Shown here in pieces: positions 23,102 to 47,107 of a stretch of DNA of 64,000 nt (position 1 is its first letter; each line of letters starts with the position of its first letter). Under the pieces are notes generated by a model. That model did no database searches. It was not told the origin of the DNA and was given only the letters and a program-made list of their open reading frames with translations. Source of the DNA: Candidatus Omnitrophota bacterium (GTDB taxonomy: Bacteria; Omnitrophota; Gorgyraeia; Duberdicusellales; 4484-171); the NCBI GenBank assembly GCA_016935525.1, contig JAFGQU010000004.1:131774-195773 (forward strand). Direction: 5' to 3'. Both the position numbers and the translations under genes were made by a program.

Positions 23102-23171
23102 ATAACCGATGGTTTTTTAAAGAGATACTGTTCTATTATACACACCGAAGGGGTTTCTCCTACTGGTTTAT

Positions 23172-24080: not shown

Positions 24081-24082
24081 AA

Positions 24083-24178
24083 GTCACAAGTCACATGGTC
24101 ACATAGTCACACGTCAAAAAACAATGAGATCATTTCTCCATCCCCTGCGTGTGTCGTGTATCATGTGACGTGTGACCT
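24083..24178. repeat. REP-like intergenic palindrome built from inverted GTCACAN/NTGTGAC heptamer arrays
   Basis: gtcacaagtcacatggtcacatagtcacacgtca ... AT-rich core ... gcgtgtgtcgtgtatcatgtgacgtgtgacc. Confidence 0.8.
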
Positions 24179-25256: not shown

Positions 25257-25628
25257 TCAGGATAAAAAGAATATACCCTCAGCACCGGCGACAAGATTAC
25301 CGTGTTCATCGTAAATCTCAACTGTCCCGTAGAATGACTTATCCCGTTTCCGGAGGATACGTGCCGATGCGAACAAAGACTCCGTACGGACCGGCCGCTT
25401 AAACTCTACCGTGAGCTTAAGCGTAGAAAATTTTCTTTGCGGGAAAACCACGGAAGCGCATACTGCCAGAGCGGTATCCGCCAACGAACAGATTACGCCT
25501 CCGTGCATAAAGCCTCGGGGATTAAGTAAATCCTCCCGGAAAGGAAGCTTCAGGAGTGTCTTTTCTTTTTCCCGGCAAACTACCTCAATTCCTACTATCC
25601 GTTCAAAATTCCCTTTTATCTCTTCCAT
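25257..25628 (-). CDS. PaaI-family hotdog-fold thioesterase
   Basis: HGGVICSLADTA motif of PaaI/4HBT-II thioesterases. 123 aa. Confidence 0.7.
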   Translation of the reverse strand: MEEIKGNFERIVGIEVVCREKEKTLLKLPFREDLLNPRGFMHGGVICSLADTALAVCASVVFPQRKFSTLKLTVEFKRPVRTESLFASARILRKRDKSFYGTVEIYDEHGNLVAGAEGIFFLS

Positions 25629-25631: not shown

Positions 25632-27113
25632 CTAGTAGGTATACTTCGCTTCAAATACGATCTGGTCATTGTTACGGAATTGTCCGTTCGATCCCCATAC
25701 ACTGCCCCAGAAATGGTGGTATCCCAAAGTCAACCATAGGTTATCACGCAATTCGTATTTGGTCTTAAACGATATCCGCCCATCATTATCGTCACCGTAG
25801 ATGACCAGCACTTCCGGCTGAAGCCGTTCATGAAGGAAATCGGTCGCGATCTTCAACGTAAGAGTGTTCTCTATCTTCTCCATAGTACCGTACGTATACG
25901 CGTTCAATATCTGAAGATTCCCCGGCCGGTCGGCATCTTCATGGATAAACTGAGCGAACTGGACAGAGAACAGCCAGTTGGTAAAGAAATTCTTATCGAA
26001 TCCGAGCACATAGGCATATTTATCGCTGGGCTCGGTAGACTGGCGGCTTCCTTCCGTACCGTAATACGTCGGTTCATCTTTCAGGTAAGCGAATTCTCCG
26101 CGAATGGTCAGACCTTCCAGCGGTCCCCGTTCGACAAAACTACGATTGAACGAAAATCCCATCATCTGCATCAGTTTATGCCGGCGGGAGAACTGGTAAT
26201 CCCCGATGAACGGCGGATCAAAAGGGTTTGGCGTGGGGAAAAAAGAATCGGTGTAGGTATAGGCGTTGGTGGAATATCCATAAAGCCAGTTGAACGTATA
26301 TTCGAGGTTTCCGACCATAGACCTCCATCTTACGCCGACCCGGGAATTTTTAAACTGCTTGGCGGGTTGATATAACCGTAGATCGGTCGTCCCTCCGATG
26401 GCCGCATTAAAATTCCGGAACGAATCGAAATCATTAAACGATTTGAACGCAAAAGGAGCGTGCGGAGGAGCCGAACGCGACGCTTCGAAATCAGGAATCA
26501 CTAAGAGCTGTAGCGTCGAATCGACTTTCGGCGAATATTCCATCTTCATCATCCATAGCGGTATCCGGATATCGGCGAAATCGGGAAGCCAGTAGTAAGA
26601 AAGGTCAAAGGGCATAACCCGATCAAGTAAAGGTATCCCGTCGGCCATTCCCCACACCACCTGCTGTTTCCCCAGTCGGAGGTCCAGTTGCGGAGACGTA
26701 TAATCAAAATAACAGTCCCGCAACCATTCGGTACGTTGAGTATTTCCCATACTCTCTTGATTCTTATCATAGTAGGAATTGTAATCCGTACGGAGACTAT
26801 AGGCAGCGTCATAGAAGTACCGCGGATGGAAAAAGAAAGTCCATTTATCGGACATAGTATATTGGAGAGCGACATCGACGGTATTTTTCCATGATGAGAG
26901 AGAGAGATGCTCCTGGTCGTTATAGTTTTTTATCCAGGTTTCGGTTTTTACATACCCCGAATATTCGATTTTATCCGCACTATCCGCCGCATAAAGAGGC
27001 AACGGGATCAAGAGCACGTAGAACAACCACCTTTTCATATCATTCCCCCTTTTTCGAAAACTGAATTTCATATTACTCATTTTTATGAACAATGCCGGAT
27101 GAAGATCTACCAT
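25632..27113 (-). CDS. Outer-membrane beta-barrel protein (DUF1302-like)
   Basis: Signal peptide (LLIPLPLYAAD). Alternating amphipathic strands and an aromatic C-terminal residue (AKYTY). Adjacent to a LolA-like gene and the RND exporter. Confidence 0.5.
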   Translation of the reverse strand: MVDLHPALFIKMSNMKFSFRKRGNDMKRWLFYVLLIPLPLYAADSADKIEYSGYVKTETWIKNYNDQEHLSLSSWKNTVDVALQYTMSDKWTFFFHPRYFYDAAYSLRTDYNSYYDKNQESMGNTQRTEWLRDCYFDYTSPQLDLRLGKQQVVWGMADGIPLLDRVMPFDLSYYWLPDFADIRIPLWMMKMEYSPKVDSTLQLLVIPDFEASRSAPPHAPFAFKSFNDFDSFRNFNAAIGGTTDLRLYQPAKQFKNSRVGVRWRSMVGNLEYTFNWLYGYSTNAYTYTDSFFPTPNPFDPPFIGDYQFSRRHKLMQMMGFSFNRSFVERGPLEGLTIRGEFAYLKDEPTYYGTEGSRQSTEPSDKYAYVLGFDKNFFTNWLFSVQFAQFIHEDADRPGNLQILNAYTYGTMEKIENTLTLKIATDFLHERLQPEVLVIYGDDNDGRISFKTKYELRDNLWLTLGYHHFWGSVWGSNGQFRNNDQIVFEAKYTY

Positions 27114-28054
27114 CGCGAACGCATTAATGCTTTTACGGTAAAATTCTGTTCGTCTATACCTTGATCATACCGGGTATTACTCATAAGGATCGTCGTGCGA
27201 TGGTTCGTACGCAGGTCCTTGCATTCCAGGGAAATCTGGGTAGGATATCGCTGACCATTCACGTCAATCAAATCCCACTCCCGGGAAACCGTTTTAAACT
27301 TCCTTCCGGTTTTATCGTAATATTCCTCAAAAATGATTCCGCCGTGGCTCTTATCAACCCATACTACACGTTTGTCATAATACCAATGGCTTTTCTTAGG
27401 ACGGCATTCGATTATAAAACAGGGAGCTCCCTGAGCTTTCATCTCTCCGGTCTCCTCTAAAGTATACCCTTTGAACGCATCCTCTCCTTTCAATTCATAT
27501 GTTTCATCCTCGAACCGCCGGGTAGAGACTTCCTCTACCGTCAAATCCGACCCCATGAACGCGTCGTCATCTTCCGAAGCGGATATTTTACGGGCTTTTT
27601 TCAGAGAAGGGATCCATAACCATACTTCCTGGTCCTTCTGGTAATCTTTATAGGTCCAGGTCAATACCGCAAGACCCTTCACCTCGGTAGGATAGGTAAT
27701 CGCAATAAGGTCTTTATAAGAAATATCTCCTTTATCCCCTTCGACGATACGTAACCGTTCCCAGATACGTTTACGCGTGAAGCCCGAAGGATCGACGTAA
27801 AATACGTTCCCCTCCTGCTGGAAATCCTTCGCAAACAAAGAATATTTGTTATGATAAGCGATTTCCATAATTTCTCCAGCACTCATACCCGAGGCAGGAA
27901 CATAGAGACGATGATACTCCAATGGTAATGCCTCGACAGCAAAAATGCAGAGAATGAACACGACTATGAGCGTCCCCCACTTCATAGCGACCTCCTTTCT
28001 TGTTTTCTCTACCGGATCTGACTTACCCTTTTGAGACTTTTTTCCCTCTATCAC
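27107..28054 (-). CDS. Periplasmic LolA-like lipoprotein-carrier-fold protein (DUF1329-like)
   Basis: Signal peptide and the composition and size of outer-membrane lipoprotein-sorting-like proteins. Translationally coupled with the flanking genes. Confidence 0.5.
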   Translation of the reverse strand: MIEGKKSQKGKSDPVEKTRKEVAMKWGTLIVVFILCIFAVEALPLEYHRLYVPASGMSAGEIMEIAYHNKYSLFAKDFQQEGNVFYVDPSGFTRKRIWERLRIVEGDKGDISYKDLIAITYPTEVKGLAVLTWTYKDYQKDQEVWLWIPSLKKARKISASEDDDAFMGSDLTVEEVSTRRFEDETYELKGEDAFKGYTLEETGEMKAQGAPCFIIECRPKKSHWYYDKRVVWVDKSHGGIIFEEYYDKTGRKFKTVSREWDLIDVNGQRYPTQISLECKDLRTNHRTTILMSNTRYDQGIDEQNFTVKALMRSRW

Positions 28055-30428
28055 TATCCCGGTACTTCAAACGGCTGCGCACTTTTCCGAAAAGAAAATA
28101 AGGCTTGACCCACCATACCAATACCGGGATCATGACTAACGAGGTAACCATGTTAAGAATAAGCGCTACGCATAAATTTAATCCCAACCTCACCTGCAGG
28201 AGGATTGAAGAAAATACCCAGGCAAAAATACCCAGCGATACGATAAATCCGCTGAAGAACACCGCCTTTCCGGAAGTGATCAGAGTATGATAAAGAATAT
28301 TTTTATAAGTCCTCTTCTTTTCCCTCATCTCCTGATGGAACCGAGCCATCATATAGATCCCGTAGTTGATCCCTAATCCTTCACTTAAAGAAGCAAGCGG
28401 CAGGGTCTCGACGGTAATCGGCGTTCCCAGAAAACCATAGAGCGCAAAGACGATCAAATTGCTGAACGCCAGCGGTAATAGTAATAATCCCGCGGCCGTA
28501 AAAGAACGGTACATAAAACTTACGTATATAAAAATCAACACGGAGATAAAAAGAACATTGGGAACGATCGTACGTTTAATAATATCATTTACCGCATAGA
28601 GGATACCGATATCGCCCCCCCCGTAACGTATACGGACAGTGCCTTGCGGACGTCCGGACACATAGTTTCTGGTCGTTTTAATGATTTTAGCAACGGTACG
28701 CGACGTATGATTTTTGACGTTAAATTTGATATTCGCGGTTTTTTCATCGCGGCTGATAAGATGGTCGAAATCCGAGGGAAATCCGGAAAGAGTATAGAGG
28801 AACCAGTATTCGGCGATCGTCTTGTCGTTTTCAGGAATAGCAAAATATTCTCTTTTCCCCTCTTTCATGAACATATTAAGCCCTTTAATCGCGTTTGCAA
28901 TCGAAACGGCACTGCCTACTTCCGGGATATTATCGACAAGATAGGTCTGGAAATCGTCGATGGTGCTTAACACTTCACGAGAGAAAAGAGGACGGTCGGA
29001 TTCGACCAGCACATAATACGAATTCGTGCCGCCGAAATGGGTATTGATAAATTTTTCGGCCTGATTGTAGGGACTCTCCGGATAGAGGTAAGAAGAGCCC
29101 TGCGAATTATCGCCGATCACAATCCTGCTGATCCCCAATAACGCAACCAGTCCGCCCAGAATAAAGATCACGACGACGATAGTCCCGGCACGTTTACTCA
29201 GAGAAAATACGCTTAATCTCAAAAGCATCGCATCAACCCAGCGGTGTTCTTCTTCCTTTTCTATTTCCAGGATCTTCGGACGGTGCATAAAAGAAAGTAC
29301 CGCGGGAGTGAACATAAACGAAGTAAAAAAATTCGCCAGGATCCCCAGTCCGCTGGCAAACGCCATACTTTTAATCGTCGGCAACGGAACGAACATCAAA
29401 GAGAGAAACCCGAACCCATCGGTAAGCACACAGGCCAATCCGGGAATAAAAAGGTGAGCCATTGTACTGACAATAGCATGTTTACTTTTCATCCGCGGGT
29501 TGCGCATCTCTTCATAATAGCGTTTCAAAGTATGGACGGAATGGCTTATCCCTAACGACAACACGATAAAAGGGACAAGGATGGTCGAAGGGTCAAGACG
29601 TAATCCCATCAACTTCATCGTTCCCATCCCCCATAACGTAGCCATTGAAGAATCAAGTAAAGGGAGAATGATCCCGCGTTTAGAGCGAAACGTAAGATAG
29701 AGCACCGCGGAAATAATGAGAAAACTGATTATAAGGATCCGCAGCATCTTCGGCAGATAAGCATTAAGCCATCCTTCCAGTATCGGCCGGCCAGCAATAT
29801 AAAAATATGTATGCTCATCCTCATATTTGGTTTTCAATTCCTGAAGAGAACGGAAGATAGACGAAGTACGCACCTTTGAGGTAAAATCGACGTAAATGAG
29901 CGTACTGGTCATATCTTCAGAAACCATCCGGCGGTACACATTGGGGTCAGAAAGTACGTTTCTGCGGAATGCTTCCATCTCTTCCTGGTTCTCGGGAGGG
30001 TCCCGGAGCAATCGTTCCACGAAAAACCCTTCTTCATCGGCCCGGACATGCTTTACGTGCCGGCTGGCAATGGACTGCACACGGGAAATATTTACCCCTT
30101 CCAGAAGATATACATCTTCGGTAAGAGATATTACTTTTTCCAGAAAATCGTGGGTGAAAATATTTCCATCGGTCGACTTTAACGCAATTGATACCTGGTT
30201 TAACCCGCCAAACACGTCGGTAAGGATATTCTGAACCTGAATGAACGGGTGCTGTTGAGGAAGAAAATCTTCCAGGCGGGTCTCGATTTCAATATCTTTC
30301 AGTACACTGATAAAGAAAACCGAAATGATTATACAGGCAAGAATGATATAGATACGCAGATGGATGATTTGACGAGCTAAACGATAGCGAGAATCGAAAT
30401 GGAGCGAACTATCTTTGGTTTTTTTCAT
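28023..30428 (-). CDS. RND-superfamily exporter of the MMPL/HpnN type
   Basis: 801 aa. Two 6-TM bundles each preceded by a large periplasmic loop, as in MMPL/SSD transporters. Confidence 0.7.
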   Translation of the reverse strand: MKKTKDSSLHFDSRYRLARQIIHLRIYIILACIIISVFFISVLKDIEIETRLEDFLPQQHPFIQVQNILTDVFGGLNQVSIALKSTDGNIFTHDFLEKVISLTEDVYLLEGVNISRVQSIASRHVKHVRADEEGFFVERLLRDPPENQEEMEAFRRNVLSDPNVYRRMVSEDMTSTLIYVDFTSKVRTSSIFRSLQELKTKYEDEHTYFYIAGRPILEGWLNAYLPKMLRILIISFLIISAVLYLTFRSKRGIILPLLDSSMATLWGMGTMKLMGLRLDPSTILVPFIVLSLGISHSVHTLKRYYEEMRNPRMKSKHAIVSTMAHLFIPGLACVLTDGFGFLSLMFVPLPTIKSMAFASGLGILANFFTSFMFTPAVLSFMHRPKILEIEKEEEHRWVDAMLLRLSVFSLSKRAGTIVVVIFILGGLVALLGISRIVIGDNSQGSSYLYPESPYNQAEKFINTHFGGTNSYYVLVESDRPLFSREVLSTIDDFQTYLVDNIPEVGSAVSIANAIKGLNMFMKEGKREYFAIPENDKTIAEYWFLYTLSGFPSDFDHLISRDEKTANIKFNVKNHTSRTVAKIIKTTRNYVSGRPQGTVRIRYGGGDIGILYAVNDIIKRTIVPNVLFISVLIFIYVSFMYRSFTAAGLLLLPLAFSNLIVFALYGFLGTPITVETLPLASLSEGLGINYGIYMMARFHQEMREKKRTYKNILYHTLITSGKAVFFSGFIVSLGIFAWVFSSILLQVRLGLNLCVALILNMVTSLVMIPVLVWWVKPYFLFGKVRSRLKYRDSDRGKKVSKG

Positions 30429-30481: not shown

Positions 30482-31921
30482 TCAGGGAATGCCGAACCAC
30501 CCCGATACCGGAGATTTGTCAAACCCGATCCCGAGATGCCGGCACTGGACATATTCGAAAAACCCGGATTTACCCAGATTCCTGCCCCATCCGCTCTGTT
30601 TCGTCCCGCCGAAAGGAGTGGCCGAGTTCATCCGGGCAAACGTATTGAGCCATATCGTACCGCAGGAAACAGTTTTAGCTATTTTCTCGAGGTTTACTAT
30701 ATCTTTTGACCATAGCTGTGCTACTAATCCGGTAGGATTGTTCCGGAGGATCTTTTTGATCTCCTCGTTATTTTTCACTTTTTTCACTAACAGTACCGGC
30801 GCGAAAAACTCTTCATAAAGGATCTCGTCTATTTCGATAATCGTCGGCGGATAAAAATATCCTTTTAAGGAAGGGATCTCCCCGCCGGTAAGCAAGCGGT
30901 TGCCTTTATTTACCAATTCCTGTACCCGGGCATGCACCTCGTCACGGTGCCCTTTTGTCGGTAACGCGCCCATTGTGCAGGTAGCGCTGAAAGGGTCGCC
31001 TAACGTTATGGTTTTTACCCCTTCAAGTAACCGGGCAACACACCGATCATACACTTTCTCTTCGATAAGTACGATACTCGTCCCGATACAGATCTGTCCC
31101 TGTTTCATAAACGCCGAACCAAGGACGTTCTGGACGGCTTCCTCACAATCGGCATCGTTATAGATAACGGTACAATTCGCTCCGCCCAGTTCACAGAGGA
31201 TTTTTTTAGGGTACACGCTTGATTCACTCACTATTTTTTTGAGCGTCCCCCGTGACCCGGTAAAAGAGATAAGGTCTACCGGACTCCGAGCAAGGTGCGC
31301 TCCGACCGTTACGCCGGGACCGGAGACGATATTGATCAACCCTTTGGGTATATCGAGCCGGTCGATCACTTTCGCCAATTCCAATAATGAAAGCGATCCG
31401 TATTCCGAAGGTTTTACGATCAGACTGTTACCGCCGGCAAGCGCCGCCGCACAACTAAACCCGAAGATCATCAGTGGTACGTTATAAGGCAGATAGACCC
31501 CGCAGGTCCCAAACGGCACATAGTCGATATAATCGGTCCCGTCGGATGTGTGATGCAGCTCTTCGGTGAACGTCTCCAGAAATGAAGCGTAATACCCAAA
31601 ACAATCCGCCGCCAAAGGTATATCCACAAACAGAGATTCTTTATGCGGTTTACCTATCTCTCTGGTCTCAAGTTCAGCCAGGATGCTGAGATGTTCCAAG
31701 ATCGCTCTTTGGATCTCCCGTAACGTGTTCGCCCGGTCAAGCTTAGAAATTTCCCGCCACAGCAACGAAGCTTCCCTCGCCGCGTCGACCGCGGACTTAA
31801 GATCTTCCGACGTAGTCTCGTATATCTGAGCGATAGGTTCAGCCGTTACCGGATTTTCTATCGCGATCACATTGTTACTCTTTTTAAACTCTCCGGCAAT
31901 GTAATAAGGATATTCCTTCAT
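30482..31921 (-). CDS. NAD(P)-dependent aldehyde dehydrogenase
   Basis: ELGGANC Glu motif, GQICIGTS catalytic Cys motif and a GSxxTG cofactor motif. The ORF-track extension to 31969 starts at GTG inside the repeat and is unlikely. The MKEYPYY start fits better. Confidence 0.8.
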   Translation of the reverse strand: MKEYPYYIAGEFKKSNNVIAIENPVTAEPIAQIYETTSEDLKSAVDAAREASLLWREISKLDRANTLREIQRAILEHLSILAELETREIGKPHKESLFVDIPLAADCFGYYASFLETFTEELHHTSDGTDYIDYVPFGTCGVYLPYNVPLMIFGFSCAAALAGGNSLIVKPSEYGSLSLLELAKVIDRLDIPKGLINIVSGPGVTVGAHLARSPVDLISFTGSRGTLKKIVSESSVYPKKILCELGGANCTVIYNDADCEEAVQNVLGSAFMKQGQICIGTSIVLIEEKVYDRCVARLLEGVKTITLGDPFSATCTMGALPTKGHRDEVHARVQELVNKGNRLLTGGEIPSLKGYFYPPTIIEIDEILYEEFFAPVLLVKKVKNNEEIKKILRNNPTGLVAQLWSKDIVNLEKIAKTVSCGTIWLNTFARMNSATPFGGTKQSGWGRNLGKSGFFEYVQCRHLGIGFDKSPVSGWFGIP

Positions 31922-31939
31922 AATTTTAGTTTTATAATG

Positions 31940-32022
31940 GTCACACGACACATAGTCACATAGACACACGTAAAAAAATATGGATCTTATACGTGTGACG
32001 TGTGACGTGTGACTTTGTGACC
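31940..32022. repeat. REP-like GTGAC-heptamer palindromic element
   Basis: ggtcacacgacacatagtcacatagacacacg - taaaaaaatatggatcttat - acgtgtgacgtgtgacgtgtgactttgtgacc. Lies between the aldolase stop and the ALDH start. Confidence 0.8.
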
Positions 32023-32023: not shown

Positions 32024-33046
32024 TCATTCTACCGGCGCTTCTTCCCATAATTTGAAGGTGCGTACCATCACCGGGTACCACCGGCTCATCTTCGCAAAAT
32101 CACCTTTGGTCTTCACCTTCCCCTGAGTCGATGCGACAAAAGGATCGATCTCTTTATTGAACACTTTTTTAAGGACTTCCGGTTTACCGATGATCACAAA
32201 TTCCGCATCATCACAGTCGTCATCACGGACTATCCGGCCCTGTTCATAACAGAACCGCATGACTTCATCCGTATCCTGATTTTTTACCGCAAGCGTACAG
32301 GTCAATCCGTATTGTTTCCCTAAAGCTTGAGCTTGTTCGTCATTATTGACCAGTTCAGTAAGCCGCCCGCGGTGCGCCGCCGATAACATCTTATAGGTCT
32401 TCGACACACGCTGAGCATGTAATATCGGCTGTGTTTCCTGAACATGCAATCCGGCGGAAACCGCCTGGCTTTTAGTAATCAGATTTACTTTTGTCTGTTC
32501 TTCAATCAATTCCAAAAGGCTCACCGCTTCTTTGAATTCTTTCCCTATCGCCACGACCCCATGATACCGCAGTACCGTAATATTATTAGCCTCAAGCGCC
32601 GCCACGACCGGTTGTATATCGGTGACCGTAGGCGTATTCTGGGGTATGACCCGGACATTACCCAGATAGAATTTCGCTTCAAACGAAAATATATCCAGCG
32701 TATCGAAATAATGAAAAAACGCGGTCGTACACGGAGAATGGCTGTGGACTACGGTCTGGATATCGGGAAGCGACCGATACACCGCGAGGTGCAGATCTTT
32801 TTCACTGGACGGGGCCGATTCATTTCCCGCGATGAGATTGCCGTCGATATCGACACTCACGATATCGTCATAAGTCAAATGCCCCAAATAACAATCATGC
32901 CGGGTGATAAGGATGTGATTGGGGCCGATACGGCACGACAGGTTGCCGCTGCGGGCAGTGATCAACCCTTTTTGATAAAGGATATTCGCCCAATAAATGA
33001 TCTCTTTTTTTTCTCGTTCACACTTCACTGCCAGGCACCTCCTCAC
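32024..33046 (-). CDS. Class II aldolase/adducin-family protein fused to a C-terminal SCP2-like domain
   Basis: N-terminal half with GNLSCRIGPNHILIT...HSHSP, as in MtnB/FucA-type aldolases. C-terminus ...QGKVKTKGDFAKMSRW resembles the SCP2 sterol-carrier signature. Confidence 0.65.
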   Translation of the reverse strand: MRRCLAVKCEREKKEIIYWANILYQKGLITARSGNLSCRIGPNHILITRHDCYLGHLTYDDIVSVDIDGNLIAGNESAPSSEKDLHLAVYRSLPDIQTVVHSHSPCTTAFFHYFDTLDIFSFEAKFYLGNVRVIPQNTPTVTDIQPVVAALEANNITVLRYHGVVAIGKEFKEAVSLLELIEEQTKVNLITKSQAVSAGLHVQETQPILHAQRVSKTYKMLSAAHRGRLTELVNNDEQAQALGKQYGLTCTLAVKNQDTDEVMRFCYEQGRIVRDDDCDDAEFVIIGKPEVLKKVFNKEIDPFVASTQGKVKTKGDFAKMSRWYPVMVRTFKLWEEAPVE

Positions 33047-33500
33047 CGATTGTTTCGCGTTCAGAATGTATTATATACTTCTTTGACCGTTCATCTACAA
33101 CAAAATTATGTCCCGCCAGGGTCGAAGCATCCCGGTCAAAACCGGAAAGATCGTATTCCCCTTCAGCAAGGATACATACCGGCACCCGGTGGATTTCACT
33201 TAACAGCGCCGCGTATGAAGCCCCGGTCATCCCTTCCGGCCGCAAGGAACCTTTACGGCAGAAAAGAAACGTCTTTTTTATCTTTTTCGTATAGAAAAGA
33301 ATACCGATCATATTGTCGGTACAATATACCGCCGGGATGTAGTGTGAGGAAAGAAGCGGTAGATTATGGTGGATCCCGACACAATACGGCCGCTGTTCCG
33401 GGACGATCACCAGAGCGTCTTCATCCTTTAAGCAGGCAATATGTTCGTGTGAGATGATTCCCCATACCAACACCGCATTTTTAATCGTTTCAAGTTTCAT
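33018..33500 (-). CDS. Hypothetical protein
   Basis: 160-aa ORF in operon position, overlapping its neighbours. No recognised motif. Confidence 0.3.
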   Translation of the reverse strand: MKLETIKNAVLVWGIISHEHIACLKDEDALVIVPEQRPYCVGIHHNLPLLSSHYIPAVYCTDNMIGILFYTKKIKKTFLFCRKGSLRPEGMTGASYAALLSEIHRVPVCILAEGEYDLSGFDRDASTLAGHNFVVDERSKKYIIHSERETIGEEVPGSEV

Positions 33501-34402
33501 TGTTTCATCGGTAATTCTAAAGATTTTGTGATCAATCGGCCGGGCACCACATCAAATGCTGGATATACCGCGTCCTGGCCGTTACTCCACTTCTCAATAT
33601 AAGAAAACACCTCGCGCGGCGGCCGTTCTTCGATCTCGATACTGTTCACATCGATATCGCGGGGATATTGAGTAAGCGCGTAAAACGGGATATTGAAATG
33701 ACGGGCAAGGCACCCGAGGGCATACGTCCCGGTTTTATTGATAATATCTCCGGTCTTCGTCGCCCGGTCGGCACCGACCACGACACAATTCACTTTTTGT
33801 TTTTTCATAAGTAAAGCCGCCTGATTATCGCAGAGGAGATAACAAGACAGGTTGTTTTTCCGTAACTCCCAAAAGGTGATCCGGCTGCCCTGCAGGTAAG
33901 GCCGGGTTTCACATACGTAATAAGAAACGTGTTTACCCGAAGATTCCAATGCTTCAGCAAGATATAACAATTCTCCGTTGACGTTACATATCGTAAGGAT
34001 ATGCGCCTCTTGCGGCAGGAGTCCGGCAAGAGTAGTTGCCCTTAATTTACGGGCCCGGTCGAAATTCGTGATGAATCCGGAAACGATCTTATCCAGCGGC
34101 GCGCCGGATGCGCGGTAACGTTTTATTAATCCGTTTAAAAACAAAAAATCGAATGTAGGACGGGTCTTTTGGAATTTCCCGGCGATCTCATCGCTCGCAC
34201 ACGAATTTTCAAAAAGCACGCAACAATAGAAAAATAAAAGCACCTGGCCTAATGAACGGGTCTTCATCTGGCCTAACACACCCAAGGCGTCATCAAGAGT
34301 TTTTACCGTGATATACTCACACGTATAAGGGATCTTAGTCTCATCCAGGACTTGTATAGTATTTTCCGTTAAGCTGACCGGAAAAAGCAAAGGGCTATCC
34401 AT
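33497..34402 (-). CDS. eIF-2B-family sugar-phosphate isomerase (MtnA / ribose-1,5-bisphosphate isomerase-like)
   Basis: GADRATKTGDIINKTGTYALG and a C-terminal PAFDVVPGRLIT, characteristic of MtnA-type isomerases. Confidence 0.7.
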   Translation of the reverse strand: MDSPLLFPVSLTENTIQVLDETKIPYTCEYITVKTLDDALGVLGQMKTRSLGQVLLFFYCCVLFENSCASDEIAGKFQKTRPTFDFLFLNGLIKRYRASGAPLDKIVSGFITNFDRARKLRATTLAGLLPQEAHILTICNVNGELLYLAEALESSGKHVSYYVCETRPYLQGSRITFWELRKNNLSCYLLCDNQAALLMKKQKVNCVVVGADRATKTGDIINKTGTYALGCLARHFNIPFYALTQYPRDIDVNSIEIEERPPREVFSYIEKWSNGQDAVYPAFDVVPGRLITKSLELPMKQ

Positions 34403-36192: not shown

Positions 36193-37653
36193 TTATATAT
36201 GTTTTTCTCCCTTCACCGCGCCTTCTTCCCATTGGGAGACCCCGCGCATCACGTCCTGAAAACACAGTTTGGCTAATTGATCGAACTGGCTGTACATGAT
36301 CCGTTGGACCCGTCCAGGTTTTGAGAAAAATTCGCGCATACACCATGCACCCAATCTTCCCAGATCTTCTATGGAAAGATGATCGGTCGGCATCACCGGG
36401 TGCAAAAAATCCCATTTAAGAAAATCGATCTTTTTCGGATCGATGATCCCTTTCGCCATCCCCCGTTTCCATATCGGTGAGTTCGGCGCCGGAGTCACAT
36501 ATCCGATCCATAAGATATCGGGATCGACTTCGTCGGTAAACTCAAACCGCTGTTTCACGATCGCTTCGGTATCATAATCAAACCCCATCATGATATCGGC
36601 GACTACCGCGACATTGTTCCGGCGTAATATCTCGATGGTCTTTCTGATCTGTTCGATGGTAATCCCTTTGGCGATCTTCTTAAGTTCTTCCGGTGTGGTC
36701 ACCTCTATTCCAAATACTCCGATAAACAGACCGGTCTCTTTCATCAGCGGCAGGATCTCTTCACAGTTTACCCAATCGATCGCCCGGCCTAAAGAGACCC
36801 ATTTGATCGGATTGCCTTTTTCTTTTTTCAGGTCACAGAACTTTTTAACTCTTTCGGGATTCACGTTAAAATTATCGTCCTGGATGACCACGACTTTCGT
36901 GCCGAACTTATGATGAAGTAATTCGAGTTCTTCGATCACCCGTTCGGGAGATTTTGCCCGCCACTTCAAAAAATCTTCCGGGTGCCGCGGATCATACTGG
37001 TCCCATTCGTAACAGAACGTACAGGCCGAAGGGCACCCGCGGGAGGTCACCATTTCCACAAACGGTTTCCAGTGAGTATGGCCCACATACTTATCCATCG
37101 GGAAAAGGTCGTACGCCGGGAGCGGAAGGCTGTCCAGGCATACATTAAGCGGCCGGTGAGGGCCCATGACCGGTTTACCGTCGACGCGGGAAGAGACCCC
37201 GGCAAGGTCTTTGACCGGTTTTTTCTCGTCGATCGTCGTGATCAGATCATGGAACGCTTCTTCTTCAGCCATCACCACATAATCGATCGCCGGGTTCTGT
37301 TCCAGAGTAAATATCGGCATAGAAGAATACCATAATCCTCCGACAATGATCTTGGTATCAGGCAATGCCTGTTTTATCCGGGAAGCCGCTTCATTGAAAT
37401 ACCAGAGGATCGCGAACCCTCCGTAAGAATGGAGCATATCACCCAGCATTACCACATCCGGATTTTTCTCTTTTACCATGTGGACCATCTGGTCCATAGG
37501 TATTTCCAGGACGCGGCAATCGAGCACTTCCAGATCGTCATACCCTTTTTCCCGGACATAGGCACCCCACTGAGCATACAGCTGGTTAGGCGCGCGATGG
37601 ATACCATGAGTCGCCCATGCTCCCAACTTCGGCATCACAAACAATATTTTCAT
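36193..37653 (-). CDS. B12-binding-domain radical SAM enzyme (class B)
   Basis: N-terminal Rossmann-like B12-binding region, then SRGCPSACTFC (CX3CX2C). 486 aa. Confidence 0.75.
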   Translation of the reverse strand: MKILFVMPKLGAWATHGIHRAPNQLYAQWGAYVREKGYDDLEVLDCRVLEIPMDQMVHMVKEKNPDVVMLGDMLHSYGGFAILWYFNEAASRIKQALPDTKIIVGGLWYSSMPIFTLEQNPAIDYVVMAEEEAFHDLITTIDEKKPVKDLAGVSSRVDGKPVMGPHRPLNVCLDSLPLPAYDLFPMDKYVGHTHWKPFVEMVTSRGCPSACTFCYEWDQYDPRHPEDFLKWRAKSPERVIEELELLHHKFGTKVVVIQDDNFNVNPERVKKFCDLKKEKGNPIKWVSLGRAIDWVNCEEILPLMKETGLFIGVFGIEVTTPEELKKIAKGITIEQIRKTIEILRRNNVAVVADIMMGFDYDTEAIVKQRFEFTDEVDPDILWIGYVTPAPNSPIWKRGMAKGIIDPKKIDFLKWDFLHPVMPTDHLSIEDLGRLGAWCMREFFSKPGRVQRIMYSQFDQLAKLCFQDVMRGVSQWEEGAVKGEKHI

Positions 37654-41081: not shown

Positions 41082-41318
41082 TTACGACTGTTTTTTATTT
41101 TCAATAATCCCCACGATCTCCAGCGGAGTCGAGCTTTTTCCTATCTCGTCCGTTTCTATCTTTACCGCGAACTGTTTACCCAGCGCGACCGTCAATTCGA
41201 CCATTTCAGTTGAATCTACTCCGATAGAATCATAGAGCGTTTTATCTTCAATAAGTTCATCCTCACCCACATCCAATGTCTTGGCAATAGCCGAGATCAC
41301 TTCTTCTTTAAGTCCCAT
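41082..41318 (-). CDS. Acyl carrier protein
   Basis: IGVDSTEMVEL phosphopantetheine-attachment motif. Strong RBS AAAGGAGGG before the MGLKEE start. Confidence 0.75.
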   Translation of the reverse strand: MGLKEEVISAIAKTLDVGEDELIEDKTLYDSIGVDSTEMVELTVALGKQFAVKIETDEIGKSSTPLEIVGIIENKKQS

Positions 41319-41425
41319 GGTCCCTCCTTTTTGAAACACAGATAGTCACGGATTAAGATCCACAAGATGGTCACAGACGCAAAAATCTGCGATCATCAGT
41401 TCAAAATCAGCGATTATCTGCGCAA

Positions 41426-42661
41426 TCATGCCTTTTCAATAGCCAACACCACATTAATCCCGCCCCGGCCGCGCGCCAAAATAAGCGCTTTTTTTATTTT
41501 TCTCGACCGGGAAACGTTGGGAGTATAATCGAGATCACAGTAAGGGTCAGCCATCTCATAATTGATCGTAGGCAATATAGTCTCGTGCTCCATAGAAAGC
41601 AATGTCGAGATCAGATCAAGTGAAGTTTGAGCACCCAGGAGGTTTCCGTACATACTCTTGGGAGCGCTCAATGCGATACCACCGATCTTTTTACCGAACA
41701 CATTCTTTAGGGCCATTGTCTCATTACTGTCTCCGATTGTGGTCGCATCACCGTCGAGACAGATATAATCGATATCCTCCTTTTTCCATCCGGCATCATT
41801 GATACATTCTTCGATGGCATACTGGAAACTTTCCGGATCCAACCGGTACCGGGCATAATGGTACCCGTCACAACTTACTCCTATCCCGCGCAGGTATCCG
41901 TAGACCGGCGCGCTCCGATTACGGGCGTGGGCTTCTTTTTCGAACGTCACGATTCCGGCCCCTTCGCCCAACACAAACCCGTCACGGTTTAAATCATAGG
42001 GACGATACGCTTTTTGAGGATTAAGGTTATTTTTAGAAAGCTGACCGCAACTTGACGCCGAAAGGAGCGCATAAGGCGTAATCGGAGCTTCCATCCCGCC
42101 GGCAAGCACATAATCGTTTTTCCCCTCGGCGATCACTTTTGCTCCGTACCAAAGGGCAAGGGCCGATGAAGCTTTATCGGCGACGATGGTCTTACTATAC
42201 CCTTTAAACCCGTAATAAATAGTCACCTGCCCCTGAGGAGCCGCCGGAAACCAGGCACTGGCCATATAGGGCGAAATACCTTCACGGCCTTCCAAATACA
42301 TATCCCGCAGTTCAGTTTCGGCAAAAAGCCATCCTCCCAGAGCGTTTCCCATGAATACTCCGACTCTATTCTTATCCACCTGGGTATGATCTATCCGGGC
42401 ATCCTGTAACGCTTGTTCAGACGCTACCAGCGCCATATGAGAAAACACATCGATCTTTTTGATCAGCCGGCTCGATAAATGCGTGTAATAATCGAGTTCA
42501 TGTACCTGGCCGGCAATACGGGAAGGATAGAGTTTTGCGTCGAAGCGGGTGATCTCATCGACAAACGAACGGGCCTGTTTTAAATTCGCCCAAAACGTTT
42601 CTTTCTTCATCCCGCAGGGAGACACTACTCCTAATCCGGTAATAGCAACTGATTCTTTCAT
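41426..42661 (-). CDS. Ketosynthase-beta / chain-length-factor-like KS paralog, catalytically inactive
   Basis: Thiolase-fold KS in which the catalytic Cys position reads ADKASS (Lys). The two catalytic His positions read DGDATT and GNLLGAQ (Asp, Asn). Confidence 0.8.
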   Translation of the reverse strand: MKESVAITGLGVVSPCGMKKETFWANLKQARSFVDEITRFDAKLYPSRIAGQVHELDYYTHLSSRLIKKIDVFSHMALVASEQALQDARIDHTQVDKNRVGVFMGNALGGWLFAETELRDMYLEGREGISPYMASAWFPAAPQGQVTIYYGFKGYSKTIVADKASSALALWYGAKVIAEGKNDYVLAGGMEAPITPYALLSASSCGQLSKNNLNPQKAYRPYDLNRDGFVLGEGAGIVTFEKEAHARNRSAPVYGYLRGIGVSCDGYHYARYRLDPESFQYAIEECINDAGWKKEDIDYICLDGDATTIGDSNETMALKNVFGKKIGGIALSAPKSMYGNLLGAQTSLDLISTLLSMEHETILPTINYEMADPYCDLDYTPNVSRSRKIKKALILARGRGGINVVLAIEKA

Positions 42662-47002: not shown

Positions 47003-47107
47003 AGTCACAAGGTCACATAGTCACAGGTCACACGCAATAGTTACTTTGAGGTATTTTCTTGACGTGTGTCGTGTGACGTGTGTCGTGTGACGTGTGTCGT
47101 GTGACGT
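47003..47107. repeat. REP-like GTGAC element with a 14-nt GTGTGACGTGTGTC x3 right arm
   Basis: tagtcacaaggtcacatagtcacaggtcacacgc - aatagttactttgaggtattttctt - gacgtgtgtcgtgtgacgtgtgtcgtgtgacgtgtgtcgtgtgacgttg. The right arm lies inside the ligase 3' coding end. Confidence 0.8.

What the first reader, a model, noticed from the sequence alone, without database searches (positions are those of the whole stretch)
25632..30428. RND/MMPL exporter plus LolA-like periplasmic protein plus beta-barrel triad, positioned to export the cluster product to the outer membrane
The three genes overlap each other (28023-28054 and 27107-27113). They follow the biosynthetic genes and precede a PaaI thioesterase. 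MMPL/HpnN-type transporters paired with LolA-like carriers move lipids to the outer membrane. Examples are hopanoids and the aryl-polyene ApeM/ApeL pair. A DUF1302/DUF1329-like pair next to a COG1033 exporter is a recurrent arrangement that remains poorly characterised.
Basis: partly seen in the sequence, partly recalled or inferred. Interest (0 to 1): 0.5.

Follow-up and report, generated by a model that had tools for sequence, protein, structure and literature searches.

The report
Three-part envelope lipid transporter operon
Three adjacent genes of an uncultured Omnitrophota bacterium encode an inner-membrane pump, a periplasmic lipid-carrier protein and an outer-membrane barrel that almost always occur together and probably move a greasy molecule across the cell envelope; this kind of system is already known but poorly understood, and its cargo and direction here are unproven.

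Summary

Across 80 related loci the order MMPL, LolA-like, DUF1302 is nearly invariant. In two gammaproteobacteria the pump and carrier are fused into one protein. The triad is a three-component variant of the AmeABCD / "DUF1302-DUF1329-RND" systems and lacks their BNR protein.

Its conserved neighbours are a FadD-like acyl-CoA ligase and a B12-radical-SAM / nucleoside phosphorylase / MtnA-like / aldolase-SCP2 / ALDH set. The KS/CLF/ACP polyketide-like block is not a conserved neighbour: that block occurs without an adjacent triad in two complete genomes, and the triad occurs without it in most loci.

"Exports the cluster product to the outer membrane" is therefore plausible but only partly supported. 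Uptake of hydrophobic substrates is a serious rival. Verdict: a real, moderately interesting new variant of a known kind.

The parts
28023..30428 (-). Inner-membrane RND pump of the MMPL / HAE3-like type (801 aa). It has 12 predicted TM segments and two large periplasmic loops.
   Evidence: Pfam MMPL 118 bits, plus Sterol-sensing and Patched SSD. The best NCBIfam match is HAE3 TIGR00921 at 203.6 bits, below its 351.9 cutoff. Hydropathy: TM1 at 26-44, a loop, TM2-6 at 221-381, TM7 at 415-433, a loop, TM8-12 at 621-781. The ATG at 30428 agrees with homologue starts. Buried ionisable residues covary: H296/D337 and E683/N688.
27107..27985 (-). Periplasmic LolA-like lipid-carrier protein (292 aa, Sec-type signal peptide, no lipobox). 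The longest ORF extends to 28054 but is not used.
   Evidence: PF17131 141 bits. GGAGG precedes the ATG at 27985. Homologues are about 292 aa. 0 of 50 homologues have a lipobox. AF2 pLDDT 88.1. Foldseek hits: LolA3-PG 9tp6 TM 0.89-0.91, 4z48 0.84, 3bk5 0.85.
25632..27038 (-). Outer-membrane beta-barrel of the short DUF1302 subfamily (468 aa, signal peptide, C-terminal aromatic residue). The longest ORF extends to 27113 but is not used.
47041..48603 (-). FadD-like long-chain acyl-CoA ligase, the most persistent neighbour of the triad.
   Evidence: AMP-binding 272.9 bits. NF004837 long-chain-fatty-acid--CoA ligase 410 bits, cutoff 476. It lies directly upstream of MMPL in most Omnitrophota loci.
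48700..49242 (-). PadR-family regulator at the head of the gene run.
   Evidence: PF03551 4e-12. PadR lies upstream of AMP-ligase or MMPL in L012, L021, L038, L046, L055, L061 and L086.
46247..46984 (-). DeoD-like nucleoside phosphorylase (PNP_UDP_1), part of the conserved linked module.
   Evidence: PF01048 5.6e-35. NCBIfam DeoD-type 110 bits, HpnG 41 bits. Co-located with the triad across phyla.
36193..37653 (-). B12-binding radical SAM enzyme, part of the conserved linked module.
   Evidence: Radical_SAM and B12-binding. Best NCBIfam matches are BchE 178 bits and HpnJ 134 bits, both below cutoff. Conserved next to the triad.
33018..34402 (-). Two IF-2B/MtnA-like genes (33497-34402 and 33018-33500), part of the conserved linked module.
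   Evidence: PF01008 8e-38 and 1.9e-5. MtnA models score 159-163 bits, below cutoff. Conserved as a pair in 21-23 loci.
32024..33046 (-). Class II aldolase fused to an SCP2-like lipid-binding domain, part of the conserved linked module.
   Evidence: Aldolase_II 1.6e-36 and SCP2 1e-7. The C-terminal extension is kept in 24 of 29 orthologues across phyla. PF02036 is precomputed on many homologues.
30482..31969 (-). Aldehyde dehydrogenase immediately upstream of the pump.
   Evidence: Aldedh 1.1e-121. Conserved next to the triad in 28 loci.
25257..25628 (-). Hotdog (4HBT) thioesterase immediately downstream. It is not a conserved partner.
   Evidence: 4HBT 2.5e-14. The PaaI equivalog score is below cutoff. 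Found only in the 83%-identical relative L004.
41082..43932 (-). KS / CLF-like KS / ACP block, a lineage-specific insertion in the same gene run. It is separable from the triad.
   Evidence: KS1 keeps Cys/His/His and KS2 lacks all three. ACP PP-binding 34.5 bits. The block occurs without an adjacent triad in L084 and L085, and the triad occurs without the block in L086 and most other loci.

Best explanation
The three genes encode a self-contained, envelope-spanning transport module for a very hydrophobic, acyl- or lipid-like molecule.

Shown:
- An RND/MMPL pump with 12 TM segments and covarying buried ionisable residues.
- A Sec-exported LolA-fold protein with the architecture of solved LolA3/DUF1329-type lipid-cavity proteins.
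- An 18-strand-class outer-membrane barrel.
- All three are inherited as a unit in fixed order across several phyla. The pump and carrier are fused in some gammaproteobacteria.

[quoted passage not shown] It hands the cargo to the LolA-like carrier, which shields it across the periplasm and docks on the DUF1302 barrel. The barrel inserts it into, or passes it through, the outer membrane.

Inferred cargo: an acyl lipid that is activated by the co-transcribed FadD-like ligase and modified by the B12-radical-SAM enzyme. In this lineage it may be further elaborated by the nested KS/CLF/ACP block. The logic is the same as ApeH...ApeL/M/N or mycobacterial FadD-Pks-MmpL. A PadR-type repressor probably controls the operon.
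For: - Family and fold assignments.
- Signal peptides, absence of a lipobox and a C-terminal aromatic residue.
- Synteny: LolA-like lies next to DUF1302 in 67 of 71 loci and MMPL in 60 of 62. The order is the same except in the Binatus-type loci L077/L078 (LolA-like first) and the interleaved L057-L060. This spans Omnitrophota, Thermodesulfobacteriota-labelled MAGs, Nitrospinota, Calditrichia, Moduliflexus/Vecturithrix, Binatus, Maricurvus and Halioglobus.
- Rosetta-stone fusion: MMPL, an extra TM13 and the LolA-like domain form one ORF of 1072-1074 aa, followed at once by the barrel. This matches the published TOL_3187/TOL_3188 (PMC6304351).
- Covarying relocation of membrane carboxylates argues for an active ion-coupled pump: H296/D337 versus D/Y296 with T/S337, and E683/N688 versus I683/D688.
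- Linked lipid-type enzymes: the acyl-CoA-ligase-like gene or the rSAM/PNP/IF-2B/aldolase set occurs in 39 of 40 loci with at least 33% barrel identity. In L057-L060 this set sits between the pump gene and the carrier and barrel genes.
- The aldolase carries a conserved SCP2-like lipid-binding domain.
- Precedents for export by an RND pump with a LolA-like carrier: the APE cluster (PMC8253772), and HpnN with periplasmic shuttles (PMC12324291).
- An AlphaFold-Multimer DUF1302-DUF1329 complex with ipTM 0.84 was reported by others (PMC13499233).
Against: - No experiment exists on any member of this three-component subfamily.
- Direction is not determinable from sequence.
- Phenotypes of related four-component systems come from catabolic contexts: monoterpenes, Tween 20 and butyl stearate, phenanthrene, C28 alkane and benzene (PMC6394551; 10.1101/2020.07.04.188060; 10.1101/072470; PMC6304351; PMC13101534). 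These fit uptake or tolerance at least as well as export of an endogenous lipid.
- ALDH and a CoA ligase are catabolic-type enzymes.
- Distant members of the triad are stand-alone operons with TetR or MarR regulators and no linked enzymes.
- The KS/CLF/ACP block has its own MFS transporter and occurs without an adjacent triad.
- The PNP/IF-2B/aldolase/ALDH set may simply be 5'-deoxyadenosine salvage for the radical SAM enzyme. In that case it says nothing about the cargo.
- The pump scores below the curated HAE3 cutoff.
Confidence: 0.45

Rival explanations
1. Uptake route. The barrel admits an exogenous fatty acid, lipid or hydrocarbon. The LolA-like protein carries it across the periplasm. 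The SSD-containing pump delivers it into the inner membrane, as NPC2 hands sterol to NPC1. The FadD-like ligase then traps it as an acyl-CoA (vectorial acylation), and ALDH handles aldehyde intermediates. This would suit host-dependent, small-genome Omnitrophota.
For: - The FadD-like ligase is the most persistent neighbour: it is present in 17 of 20 mid-distance Omnitrophota loci and usually lies directly upstream of MMPL.
- Ligand-responsive PadR, TetR and MarR regulators flank the triad.
- TOL_3187 rises 42-fold and TOL_3188 is seen only on n-C28 (PMC6304351).
- ameB and ameABCD mutants grow poorly on monoterpene hydrocarbons as sole carbon source (PMC6394551).
- P. putida DUF1302, DUF1329, BNR and RND mutants are defective on Tween 20 and butyl stearate (10.1101/2020.07.04.188060).
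- The pump shows similarity to the sterol-sensing domains of NPC1L1 and Patched.
Against: - Every characterised bacterial RND transporter works outward. No bacterial RND importer is known (established knowledge).
- Nile Red data for AmeABCD point to efflux (PMC6394551).
- In the window the triad sits inside a biosynthetic-type gene run with KS/CLF/ACP.
Confidence: 0.27
2. Tolerance or efflux pump. A PadR-controlled system expels toxic hydrophobic compounds from the envelope to the outside through the barrel. This is the published reading of AmeABCD. The neighbouring enzymes would be unrelated.
For: - The AmeABCD deletion lowers monoterpene tolerance and raises Nile Red accumulation (PMC6394551).
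- PadR, TetR and MarR regulators are typical of efflux operons.
- Distant triads are stand-alone operons.
Against: - The near-obligatory linkage to the acyl-CoA-ligase and rSAM module in 39 of 40 loci, and the interleaving in L057-L060, would be unexplained.
- There is no MFP or TolC-type duct.
- A lipid-chaperone step is unusual for xenobiotic efflux.
Confidence: 0.13
3. Housekeeping outer-membrane biogenesis. The 'outer membrane lipoprotein-sorting protein' (its database name) would be the cell's LolA for lipoproteins, or the triad would export a general cell-wall or outer-membrane component.
For: - NCBI names the protein an outer membrane lipoprotein-sorting protein.
- It has the LolA superfamily fold.
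- Price et al. proposed export of a cell-wall component on the basis of pleiotropic cofitness (10.1101/072470).
- The triad is widespread in Omnitrophota.
Against: - The structural match to true LolA is weak (TM about 0.5). The match to LolA3/DUF1329-type proteins is 0.84-0.91.
- LolA3-PG does not pair with LolB and lacks the LolA Arg and LolB Leu signatures (PMC13103446).
- lolA3 deletion gives no lipoprotein-related phenotype in F. johnsoniae (PMC11885536).
- The partner here is an RND pump, not LolCDE.
- A local repressor and apparent absence next to the same block in two complete genomes argue against an essential housekeeping role.
Confidence: 0.05
4. The DUF1302 and DUF1329-like proteins are esterases acting on fatty esters (the hypothesis of Thompson et al. 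2020).
For: Fitness defects of P. putida PP_0765 and PP_0766 mutants on butyl stearate and Tween 20 (10.1101/2020.07.04.188060).
Against: The models are a membrane beta-barrel and a LolA-fold half-barrel, not hydrolase folds. No hydrolase family was hit.
Confidence: 0.02

Closest known systems
AmeABCD of Castellaniella defragrans and the cofit DUF1302/DUF1329/BNR(COG4447)/RND(COG1033) clusters of Shewanella, Pseudomonas and Kangiella
   Same: An HAE3-like RND pump, a LolA-superfamily periplasmic protein and a DUF1302 outer-membrane barrel are encoded together. They are linked to handling of hydrophobic compounds, and the mechanism is unresolved (PMC6394551; 10.1101/072470; 10.1101/2020.07.04.188060).
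   Different: This system has three components, not four. No BNR/Ycf48-like protein is present in the window or in the annotated relatives. The carrier is a 292-aa PF17131 protein rather than a 450-aa DUF1329. The barrel is 468 aa rather than about 600. Gene order is pump, carrier, barrel rather than barrel, carrier, BNR, pump. The setting is an uncultured PVC-group phylum, with a different set of linked enzymes.
Thalassolituus oleivorans TOL_3187 (MMPL fused to a LolA-like domain) and TOL_3188 (predicted porin)
   Same: The pump, carrier and barrel have the same order. Equivalent fused genes were found here in Maricurvus and Halioglobus as distant homologues of all three window proteins.
   Different: There the pump and carrier are one polypeptide with an extra TM13, whereas here they are separate genes and the carrier has a cleavable-type signal peptide. 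The gammaproteobacterial pumps keep the canonical TM4 and TM10 Asp residues. Their induction by n-C28 (PMC6304351) has no counterpart that can be tested here.
Aryl-polyene cluster transport genes ApeL (LolA-like), ApeM (RND) and ApeN (LolB-like), with ApeH (acyl-ACP synthetase) and ApeK (thioesterase)
   Same: An RND pump and a LolA-like carrier are embedded in a type-II-PKS/FAS-like cluster with an AMP-ligase, KS pairs, ACP, KR and a hotdog thioesterase. They are proposed to place a lipid in the outer membrane (PMC8253772).
   Different: The outer-membrane partner here is an 18-strand-class DUF1302 barrel, not a DUF3261 LolB-like lipoprotein. No ApeG, ApeD or ApeJ equivalents were seen. Homology to ApeL and ApeM was not tested, because no sequences were available. 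The PKS-like block here is separable from the triad.
HpnN hopanoid transporter (HAE3) with candidate shuttles HpnM, HpnS and HpnT
   Same: An HAE3-type RND pump moves a membrane lipid toward the outer membrane, with a proposed periplasmic shuttle and an outer-membrane acceptor (PMC12324291).
   Different: TIGR03480 scores 69 bits against a cutoff of 752. No shc or hpn genes were found among the window ORFs scanned. The HpnN shuttles are MlaC-, MlaA- or lipocalin-like, not LolA-like.
LolA3 of Porphyromonas gingivalis (PDB 9tp6) and the DUF1329/PF17131 structural-genomics proteins 4z48 and 3bk5
   Same: These are the closest solved folds to the carrier (TM 0.84-0.91, 22-26% identity). They are periplasmic proteins with an SPI signal and a 13-strand sheet with a hydrophobic groove. 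Their function is unknown and they do not partner LolB (PMC13103446).
   Different: The genomic partners of LolA3 are not described in the papers read. Here the carrier is locked to a pump and a barrel.
Mycobacterial FadD-Pks-MmpL lipid export loci, and eukaryotic NPC2-NPC1
   Same: The analogy is in working logic only. One case is an adenylating enzyme, a synthase and an MMPL pump encoded together. The other is a soluble lipid carrier handing cargo to an SSD-containing RND protein.
   Different: Sequence similarity is only distant (MmpL3 2.6e-6, NPC1L1 5e-5). The envelope architecture differs. NPC1 works in the inward direction.

Membership tests
RND superfamily, MMPL (PF03176) | Pfam MMPL match above the gathering score | tested here: met
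   118 bits against a cutoff of 20.5, with two stretches covering both halves.
RND superfamily, MMPL (PF03176) | 12 TM segments with large periplasmic loops between TM1-2 and TM7-8 | tested here: met
   The hydropathy profile gives TM1 at 26-44, a loop to about 220, TM2-6 at 221-381, TM7 at 415-433, a loop to about 620, and TM8-12 at 621-781. This is a simple Kyte-Doolittle scan, not a dedicated predictor.
RND superfamily, MMPL (PF03176) | Membrane-embedded ionisable residues in TM4 and TM10 (proton relay) | tested here: inconclusive
   The canonical TM4 Asp is His296, with Asp337 in TM5, in 54 of 60 sequences. TM10 Asp is Asn688, with Glu683 one turn away. Both pairs covary with the canonical state. 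This is compatible with a relocated relay but is not proof.
HAE3 family (TC 2.A.6.7; TIGR00921) | Score at or above the curated NCBIfam cutoff | tested here: not met
   It is the best-scoring family, but 203.6 bits is below the cutoff of 351.9. HAE3-like is a resemblance, not a demonstrated membership.
HpnN hopanoid transporter (TIGR03480) | Equivalog score and hopanoid (shc/hpn) gene context | tested here: not met
   69.2 bits against a cutoff of 751.85. No squalene-hopene cyclase or hpn genes were found among the window ORFs scanned.
LolA_like / TP_0789-like (PF17131) | Pfam match above the gathering score over the whole model | tested here: met
   141 bits against a cutoff of 30, covering model positions 4-184 of 184.
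LolA_like / TP_0789-like (PF17131) | LolA-superfamily open beta-barrel fold with an N-terminal signal peptide | tested here: met
   AF2 pLDDT 88.1. TM 0.89-0.91 to 9tp6 and 0.84-0.85 to 4z48 and 3bk5. SPI-type signal, with a lipobox in 0 of 50 homologues.
True LolA (lipoprotein carrier of the Lol pathway) | Close fold and sequence match to LolA, and partnership with LolCDE and LolB | tested here: not met
   TM is only 0.48-0.57 to LolA structures. The adjacent inner-membrane partner is an RND pump, not LolCDE. The nearest solved relative, LolA3, does not bind LolB (PMC13103446).
DUF1329 (PF07044) | Full-length match to the about 370-position model | tested here: inconclusive
   44 bits exceeds the cutoff of 23.1, but the best matched stretch covers only model positions 124-209 of 368. 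The protein is 292 aa, against about 450 aa for AmeB (PMC6394551).
DUF1302 (PF06980) | Pfam match above the gathering score | tested here: met
   84.5 bits against a cutoff of 23.2, covering model positions 82-540 of 541.
DUF1302 (PF06980) | Outer-membrane beta-barrel with a signal peptide and a C-terminal aromatic residue | tested here: met
AmeABCD-type four-component HAE3 system | Presence of a COG4447 BNR/Ycf48-like periplasmic protein in the cassette | tested here: not met
   No such domain was found among the window ORFs scanned with Pfam. None was found in the Pfam-annotated relatives L001, L003 and L086. No conserved fourth ORF family lies within or next to the triad in 80 loci.
AmeABCD-type four-component HAE3 system | Gene order DUF1302, DUF1329, BNR, RND | tested here: not met
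   The order here is RND, LolA-like, DUF1302 in nearly all loci.
Aryl-polyene ApeL/ApeM/ApeN transport set | Homology to ApeL and ApeM, and a DUF3261 LolB-like lipoprotein partner | not tested
   No Ape sequences were available in the tools. No DUF3261 hit was found among the window ORFs scanned. The resemblance is in gene content only (PMC8253772).
PaaI thioesterase (TIGR02286), for the downstream 123-aa gene | Equivalog score | tested here: not met
   41.9 bits against a cutoff of 118.9. The generic hotdog thioesterase model TIGR00369 is passed, at 56.1 against 36.6.

The most novel reading that the evidence does not exclude
The triad, the FadD-like ligase and the B12-radical-SAM / nucleoside-phosphorylase / MtnA-like pair / aldolase-SCP2 / ALDH set form one pathway, not a transporter sitting beside a by-product salvage route. 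In this reading, a hydrophobic substrate is carried across the envelope by the triad. It is joined to a 5'-deoxyadenosyl unit by the radical SAM enzyme (HpnH-like logic). Adenine is removed by the phosphorylase (HpnG-like). The lipid-ribose-1-phosphate is isomerised. It is then cleaved by the lipid-binding aldolase to DHAP and a two-carbon-extended aldehyde. That aldehyde is oxidised by ALDH and activated by the ligase. The result would be an unrecognised anaerobic route for functionalising or building lipids in Omnitrophota and Desulfobacterota-like bacteria.
Probability: 0.07. Interest if true: 0.85.

Novelty: new variant of a known kind. Interest (0 to 1): 0.4.

Why it matters
How hydrophobic molecules cross the periplasm and the outer membrane is still an open question outside the Lpt, Lol and Mla systems. 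DUF1302/DUF1329/RND clusters are widespread and give strong fitness phenotypes, yet they have no mechanism and no solved barrel structure.

This locus defines a minimal three-gene version: pump, LolA-like carrier and barrel. It is conserved in order across several phyla. A natural pump-carrier fusion supports direct co-operation of those two parts. That gives a simpler target for reconstitution and for AlphaFold-Multimer or cryo-EM work than the four-component systems. It also points to cultivable hosts (Maricurvus, Thalassolituus) where direction could be tested.

For Omnitrophota, a phylum with no isolates, it marks a candidate envelope-lipid route. That route is tied to an unusual radical-SAM and deoxyribose-phosphate gene set whose role is unknown.

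Tried and rejected
- A sequence search of the barrel against the PDB found nothing meaningful (best E 0.096, Fc receptors). Only fold comparison worked.
- The promoter and terminator scan of 23-33 kb was not above shuffled expectation, and no candidate lay at the triad's gene boundaries. No operon boundaries are claimed from it.
- Rfam at gathering thresholds and the tRNA scan found nothing in the window.
- Literature searches for TP0789 and for Omnitrophota lipid or outer-membrane biology gave nothing usable.
- The LolA papers do not describe the neighbours of lolA3.
- I considered that the KS genes were housekeeping FabF. This was rejected because KS2 lacks Cys/His/His and an ACP, a cyclase and an SRPBCC protein follow.
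- I considered that the triad belongs to the PKS-like block. This was weakened by L084, L085 and L086.
- I could not run a multimer prediction or obtain model coordinates to count strands or inspect the carrier cavity.
- A planned bulk Pfam scan of 209 flanking ORFs was abandoned because the output was too long to pass on. Absence of a fourth conserved component therefore rests on the clustering.
- Taxon labels of several TPA MAG records are unreliable. For example, 'Planctomycetia' is given for sequences 83% identical to this Omnitrophota window. Phylum statements for groups labelled Clostridia or Thermodesulfobacteriota are tentative.

Full report
**What is at the coordinates.** The region 25632-30428 holds three co-directional minus-strand ORFs of 801, 315 and 493 codons.
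- The 801-aa protein matches MMPL PF03176 (5.6e-34), with sterol-sensing, Patched and SecDF similarity.
- The 315-codon ORF matches LolA_like PF17131 (4.3e-41, full model) and gives a partial DUF1329 hit.
- The 493-codon ORF matches DUF1302 PF06980 (1.1e-23).
- The 123-aa gene that follows is a hotdog 4HBT thioesterase. It passes the generic TIGR00369 model but not the PaaI equivalog.

Upstream, on the same strand, the gene run reads: PadR, a long-chain acyl-CoA-ligase-like enzyme, a DeoD-like nucleoside phosphorylase, an unknown 150-aa protein, an ApbA-like reductase, a TIGR04076 protein, KS, CLF-like KS, ACP, a PF04199 cyclase, an SRPBCC polyketide cyclase, an MFS transporter, an SDR, a B12-binding radical SAM enzyme, an amidohydrolase_2, a class IV aminotransferase, two IF-2B/MtnA-like proteins, a class II aldolase fused to SCP2, and an aldehyde dehydrogenase.

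The window comes from a Candidatus Omnitrophota MAG. The carrier and the aldolase are 100% identical to NCBI proteins from a 216,718-bp Omnitrophica contig. All close homologues are Omnitrophota.

**Gene starts and the claimed overlaps.** The overlaps depend on longest-ORF starts.
- Homologues of the carrier are about 292 aa and begin at the Met of MKWGTL. That ATG (27985) is preceded by GGAGG at a 6-nt spacing.
- Homologues of the barrel begin at MKRWLF. That ATG (27038) is preceded by AAGGGGG.
- The genes are therefore separated by 37 nt and 68 nt. They are close enough for one transcript, but they do not overlap.
- The pump start at 30428 agrees with its homologues.

- With 50-54-sequence alignments, AlphaFold2 gave mean pLDDT 88.1 (carrier) and 87.8 (barrel).
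- The carrier superposes on LolA3 of P. gingivalis (9tp6, TM 0.89-0.91) and on the DUF1329/PF17131 structural-genomics proteins 4z48 and 3bk5 (TM 0.84-0.85). It matches true LolA and LolB much less well, at TM of about 0.5.
- It has a Sec-type signal peptide, and none of 50 homologues has a lipobox.
- This agrees with an independent report that DUF1302 is an 18-stranded AlgE/Occ-like barrel with no solved structure (PMC13499233).
- Its C-terminal residue is Phe or Tyr in 54 of 54 sequences.
- The pump has the RND topology of 12 TM segments and two large loops.
- Its nearest curated family is HAE3, though below the cutoff. It is far from HpnN and from drug and metal RNDs.

**The triad is a unit.** A genome-collection scan with the barrel alignment returned 80 loci. 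I mapped all window proteins onto them.
- The carrier gene lies next to the barrel gene in 67 of 71 loci with enough flank.
- The pump gene is present in 60 of 62.
- The order is pump, carrier, barrel on one strand. The exceptions are the Binatus-type loci L077 and L078, where the carrier gene comes first, and the interleaved loci L057-L060.
- This holds from 83% down to 24% barrel identity. The MAGs or genomes are labelled Omnitrophota, Thermodesulfobacteriota/'delta proteobacterium', Nitrospinota, Calditrichia, Moduliflexus/Vecturithrix, Binatus, Maricurvus and Halioglobus. Some TPA taxon labels are clearly unreliable.
- Two of the four 'missing' carriers are not missing. In Maricurvus nonylphenolicus and Halioglobus a single ORF of 1072-1074 aa carries the pump, a thirteenth hydrophobic segment and the LolA-like domain. 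The barrel gene follows directly.
- This is the arrangement published for T. oleivorans. [quoted passage not shown] TOL_3188 is a predicted porin seen only on n-C28 (PMC6304351).
- The fusion is strong evidence that pump and carrier work together. The extra TM places the carrier domain in the periplasm.
- A profile search of 1.84 billion cluster representatives found 292 barrel relatives at E<=1e-30 and 4063 at E<=1e-3. The subfamily is moderately widespread.

**Is the pump likely to be active?** Alignment to MmpL3, Patched and HpnN shows that the canonical TM4 Asp is His296 and the TM10 Asp is Asn688 in the window protein. Across 60 orthologues these changes covary with nearby carboxylates.
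- His296 occurs with Asp337 in TM5 in 54 sequences. Asp or Tyr at 296 occurs with Thr or Ser at 337 in 6.
- Of 26 sequences with Asn688, 20 have Glu683. None of the 34 with Asp688 has Glu683.

A buried ionisable pair is thus preserved by relocation. This is what one expects of an ion-coupled transporter, although it is not proof.

**What travels with the triad.**
- In 39 of 40 loci with at least 9 kb of upstream sequence and at least 33% barrel identity, the flanks hold the FadD-like ligase, the phosphorylase/IF-2B/aldolase set, or both. The ligase usually lies directly upstream of the pump gene. The phosphorylase/IF-2B/aldolase set usually comes with the B12-radical-SAM enzyme and ALDH.
- In four Thermodesulfobacteriota-labelled loci the set is interleaved: pump, PNP, IF-2B, rSAM, IF-2B, aldolase, ALDH, carrier, barrel.
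- In the most distant loci (below 33% identity) the triad stands alone with a TetR or MarR gene. Only 1 of 7 has an AMP-ligase.
- PadR recurs upstream in at least seven loci.
- KS genes lie within 10 kb in only 1 of 47 loci.

Three further look-ups sharpen this.
- Two complete Omnitrophota genomes carry the entire window block in the same order: KS, CLF, ACP, cyclase, SRPBCC, MFS, SDR, rSAM, amidohydrolase, aminotransferase, IF-2B, IF-2B, aldolase, ALDH. After it they continue to RlmN or other genes, with no triad.
- A third genome has the window's upstream order (DUF212, YkuD, AccA, PadR, ligase, PNP) running straight into IF-2B, rSAM, IF-2B, aldolase, pump, carrier, barrel. It has no PKS-like block.

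The window is therefore a composite. The PKS-like block, which has its own MFS transporter, and the triad are separable accessories around a shared core of radical SAM, IF-2B and aldolase genes. The thioesterase is present only in the 83%-identical relative.

**How it most likely works.**
- Shown: the three folds, their predicted compartments, their inheritance as a unit, and the fusion.
- Inferred: the pump extracts a hydrophobic cargo from the inner membrane, the carrier shields it across the periplasm, and the barrel receives it. An AlphaFold-Multimer DUF1302-DUF1329 complex with ipTM 0.84 has been reported by others (PMC13499233).
- For cargo and direction I favour export of an endogenous acyl lipid, at modest confidence. 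Every characterised bacterial RND works outward. Pairs of an RND pump and a LolA-like carrier in the aryl-polyene and flexirubin clusters are proposed to place pigments in the outer membrane (PMC8253772; PMC11885536). Adjacency of an adenylating enzyme and an MMPL pump is the mycobacterial pattern for lipid export (established knowledge).
- The main rival is uptake. Related systems are induced by, or needed for growth on, monoterpenes, fatty esters, phenanthrene, C28 alkane and benzene (PMC6394551; 10.1101/2020.07.04.188060; 10.1101/072470; PMC6304351; PMC13101534). The persistent partners, a CoA ligase and ALDH, are catabolic in type. The regulators are ligand-responsive repressors. SSD-containing RND relatives such as NPC1, working with NPC2, operate inward.
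- Efflux or tolerance is the published reading of AmeABCD, but it leaves the enzyme linkage unexplained.
- A housekeeping LolA role is unlikely. The fold is of the LolA3/DUF1329 type, LolA3 does not bind LolB (PMC13103446), and the partner is an RND pump.
- The esterase idea is contradicted by the folds.

**The linked enzyme set.** The phosphorylase, MtnA-like isomerase and class II aldolase resemble the DHAP shunt that salvages 5'-deoxyadenosine and MTA, the by-products of radical SAM chemistry (established knowledge). The conservative reading is a dedicated clean-up route for the adjacent B12-radical-SAM enzyme. Three things are not explained by that reading.
- The aldolase has a conserved C-terminal SCP2-like lipid-binding domain, kept in 24 of 29 orthologues.
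- There is a second, truncated IF-2B paralogue.
- The set is physically interleaved with the transporter genes in another phylum.

A speculative alternative follows HpnH/HpnG logic: an adenosylated lipid whose ribose is dismantled to DHAP plus a two-carbon-extended aldehyde, then oxidised to the acid and activated as the CoA ester. It would give every conserved gene a role. There is no direct evidence for it, and I rate it at about 7%.

**Comparison with what is known, and novelty.** The kind is known: an HAE3-like RND pump with a LolA-superfamily protein and a DUF1302 barrel. It has been described genetically for AmeABCD and by cofitness in several Proteobacteria. This locus fails two defining features of that four-component cassette, since it has no BNR/Ycf48-like protein and a different gene order. 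It uses a short PF17131 carrier and a short barrel. It is best filed as a three-component variant. The only published example I found is the fused, uncharacterised TOL_3187/TOL_3188 pair. It is not HpnN, not a true Lol system and not a drug or metal RND. Membership in the ApeL/M/N set could not be tested. I score interest at 0.4. This is a real, conserved and mechanistically open envelope transporter in an uncultured phylum with an intriguing enzyme linkage, but it is not a new kind of system, and its cargo and direction remain inferences.

Noticed in passing
window 41082-43932 (-), with 37766-41039: A minimal type-II-PKS-like set in an Omnitrophota genome. KS (42658-43932) has an intact Cys/His/His triad. 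The translationally coupled CLF-like KS (41426-42661) lacks all three catalytic residues. An unlisted 85-aa ACP lies at 41082-41339. These are followed by a PF04199 cyclase, an SRPBCC polyketide cyclase, an MFS transporter and an SDR. The same block is conserved in order in two complete Omnitrophota genomes (L084, L085). The product is unknown.
   Followed up: partly
window 32024-33046 (-); orthologues in L022, L030, L041, L051, L058, L063: The class II aldolase carries a C-terminal SCP2-like lipid-binding domain. This extension (about 330 aa in total) is kept in 24 of 29 orthologues across phyla. That is unusual for FucA-, MtnB- or Ald2-type enzymes, which are about 200 aa.
   Followed up: partly
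window 33018-34402 (-), 46247-46984 (-), 30482-31969 (-), 36193-37653 (-): A DHAP-shunt-like set travels with a B12-binding radical SAM enzyme. It comprises a DeoD-like phosphorylase, an MtnA-like IF-2B protein, a second truncated 160-aa IF-2B paralogue, an aldolase and ALDH. The set occurs both with and without the transporter triad. In L057-L060 it is inserted between the pump gene and the carrier and barrel genes.
   Followed up: partly
window 28023-30428 (-), residues 296, 337, 683, 688: The pump's canonical TM4 and TM10 aspartates are replaced (His296, Asn688). They covary with carboxylates at new positions (Asp337 in TM5, Glu683 in TM10) across 60 orthologues. This suggests a relocated proton relay in this clade.
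   Followed up: yes
L074 6474-9698 and L080 5159-8377: In Maricurvus nonylphenolicus and a Halioglobus MAG the pump and the LolA-like domain are one protein of 1072-1074 aa, joined through an extra 13th TM segment. The barrel gene starts at the fused gene's stop codon.
   Followed up: yes
window 27107-28054 (-): The public annotation of this very protein (P0121, 253 aa) starts at a later Met than the 292-aa form supported by homologues and the GGAGG site. The deposited gene model appears N-terminally truncated and would lack the signal peptide.
   Followed up: partly
window 43929-44531 (-) and 45534-45986 (-): A 200-aa protein has two TIGR04076-family repeats (2.9e-28). A 150-aa protein has no family match. 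Both sit between the phosphorylase and the KS genes, and their function is unknown.
   Followed up: no
window 56487-59702 (-): Two tandem paralogues of about 515 aa combine an N-terminal GDSL/SGNH lipase-like domain with TPR repeats. A smaller GDSL-type lipoprotein (cluster c11) recurs downstream of the triad in 13 related loci.
   Followed up: no
window 20320-25200 (-): An RlmN-like radical SAM gene, a second radical SAM gene, an RsmB/F methyltransferase, a SAM methyltransferase and a TPR gene lie downstream of the triad. The same order recurs in several Omnitrophota relatives (L001, L005, L006, L014). This is probably phylum-level synteny rather than functional linkage.
   Followed up: partly
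L055, L061, L046 (upstream of PadR-MMPL): In MAGs labelled Clostridia the triad is preceded by a protein of about 1685 aa (cluster c43) and followed by two or three tandem AMP-ligase genes. The taxon label is doubtful for an outer-membrane system.
   Followed up: no
window 17639-20317 (+): The only large plus-strand gene near the cluster is a GH94-family (cellobiose/chitobiose-phosphorylase-like) protein of 892 aa. A homologue sits at a similar distance in L001.
   Followed up: no
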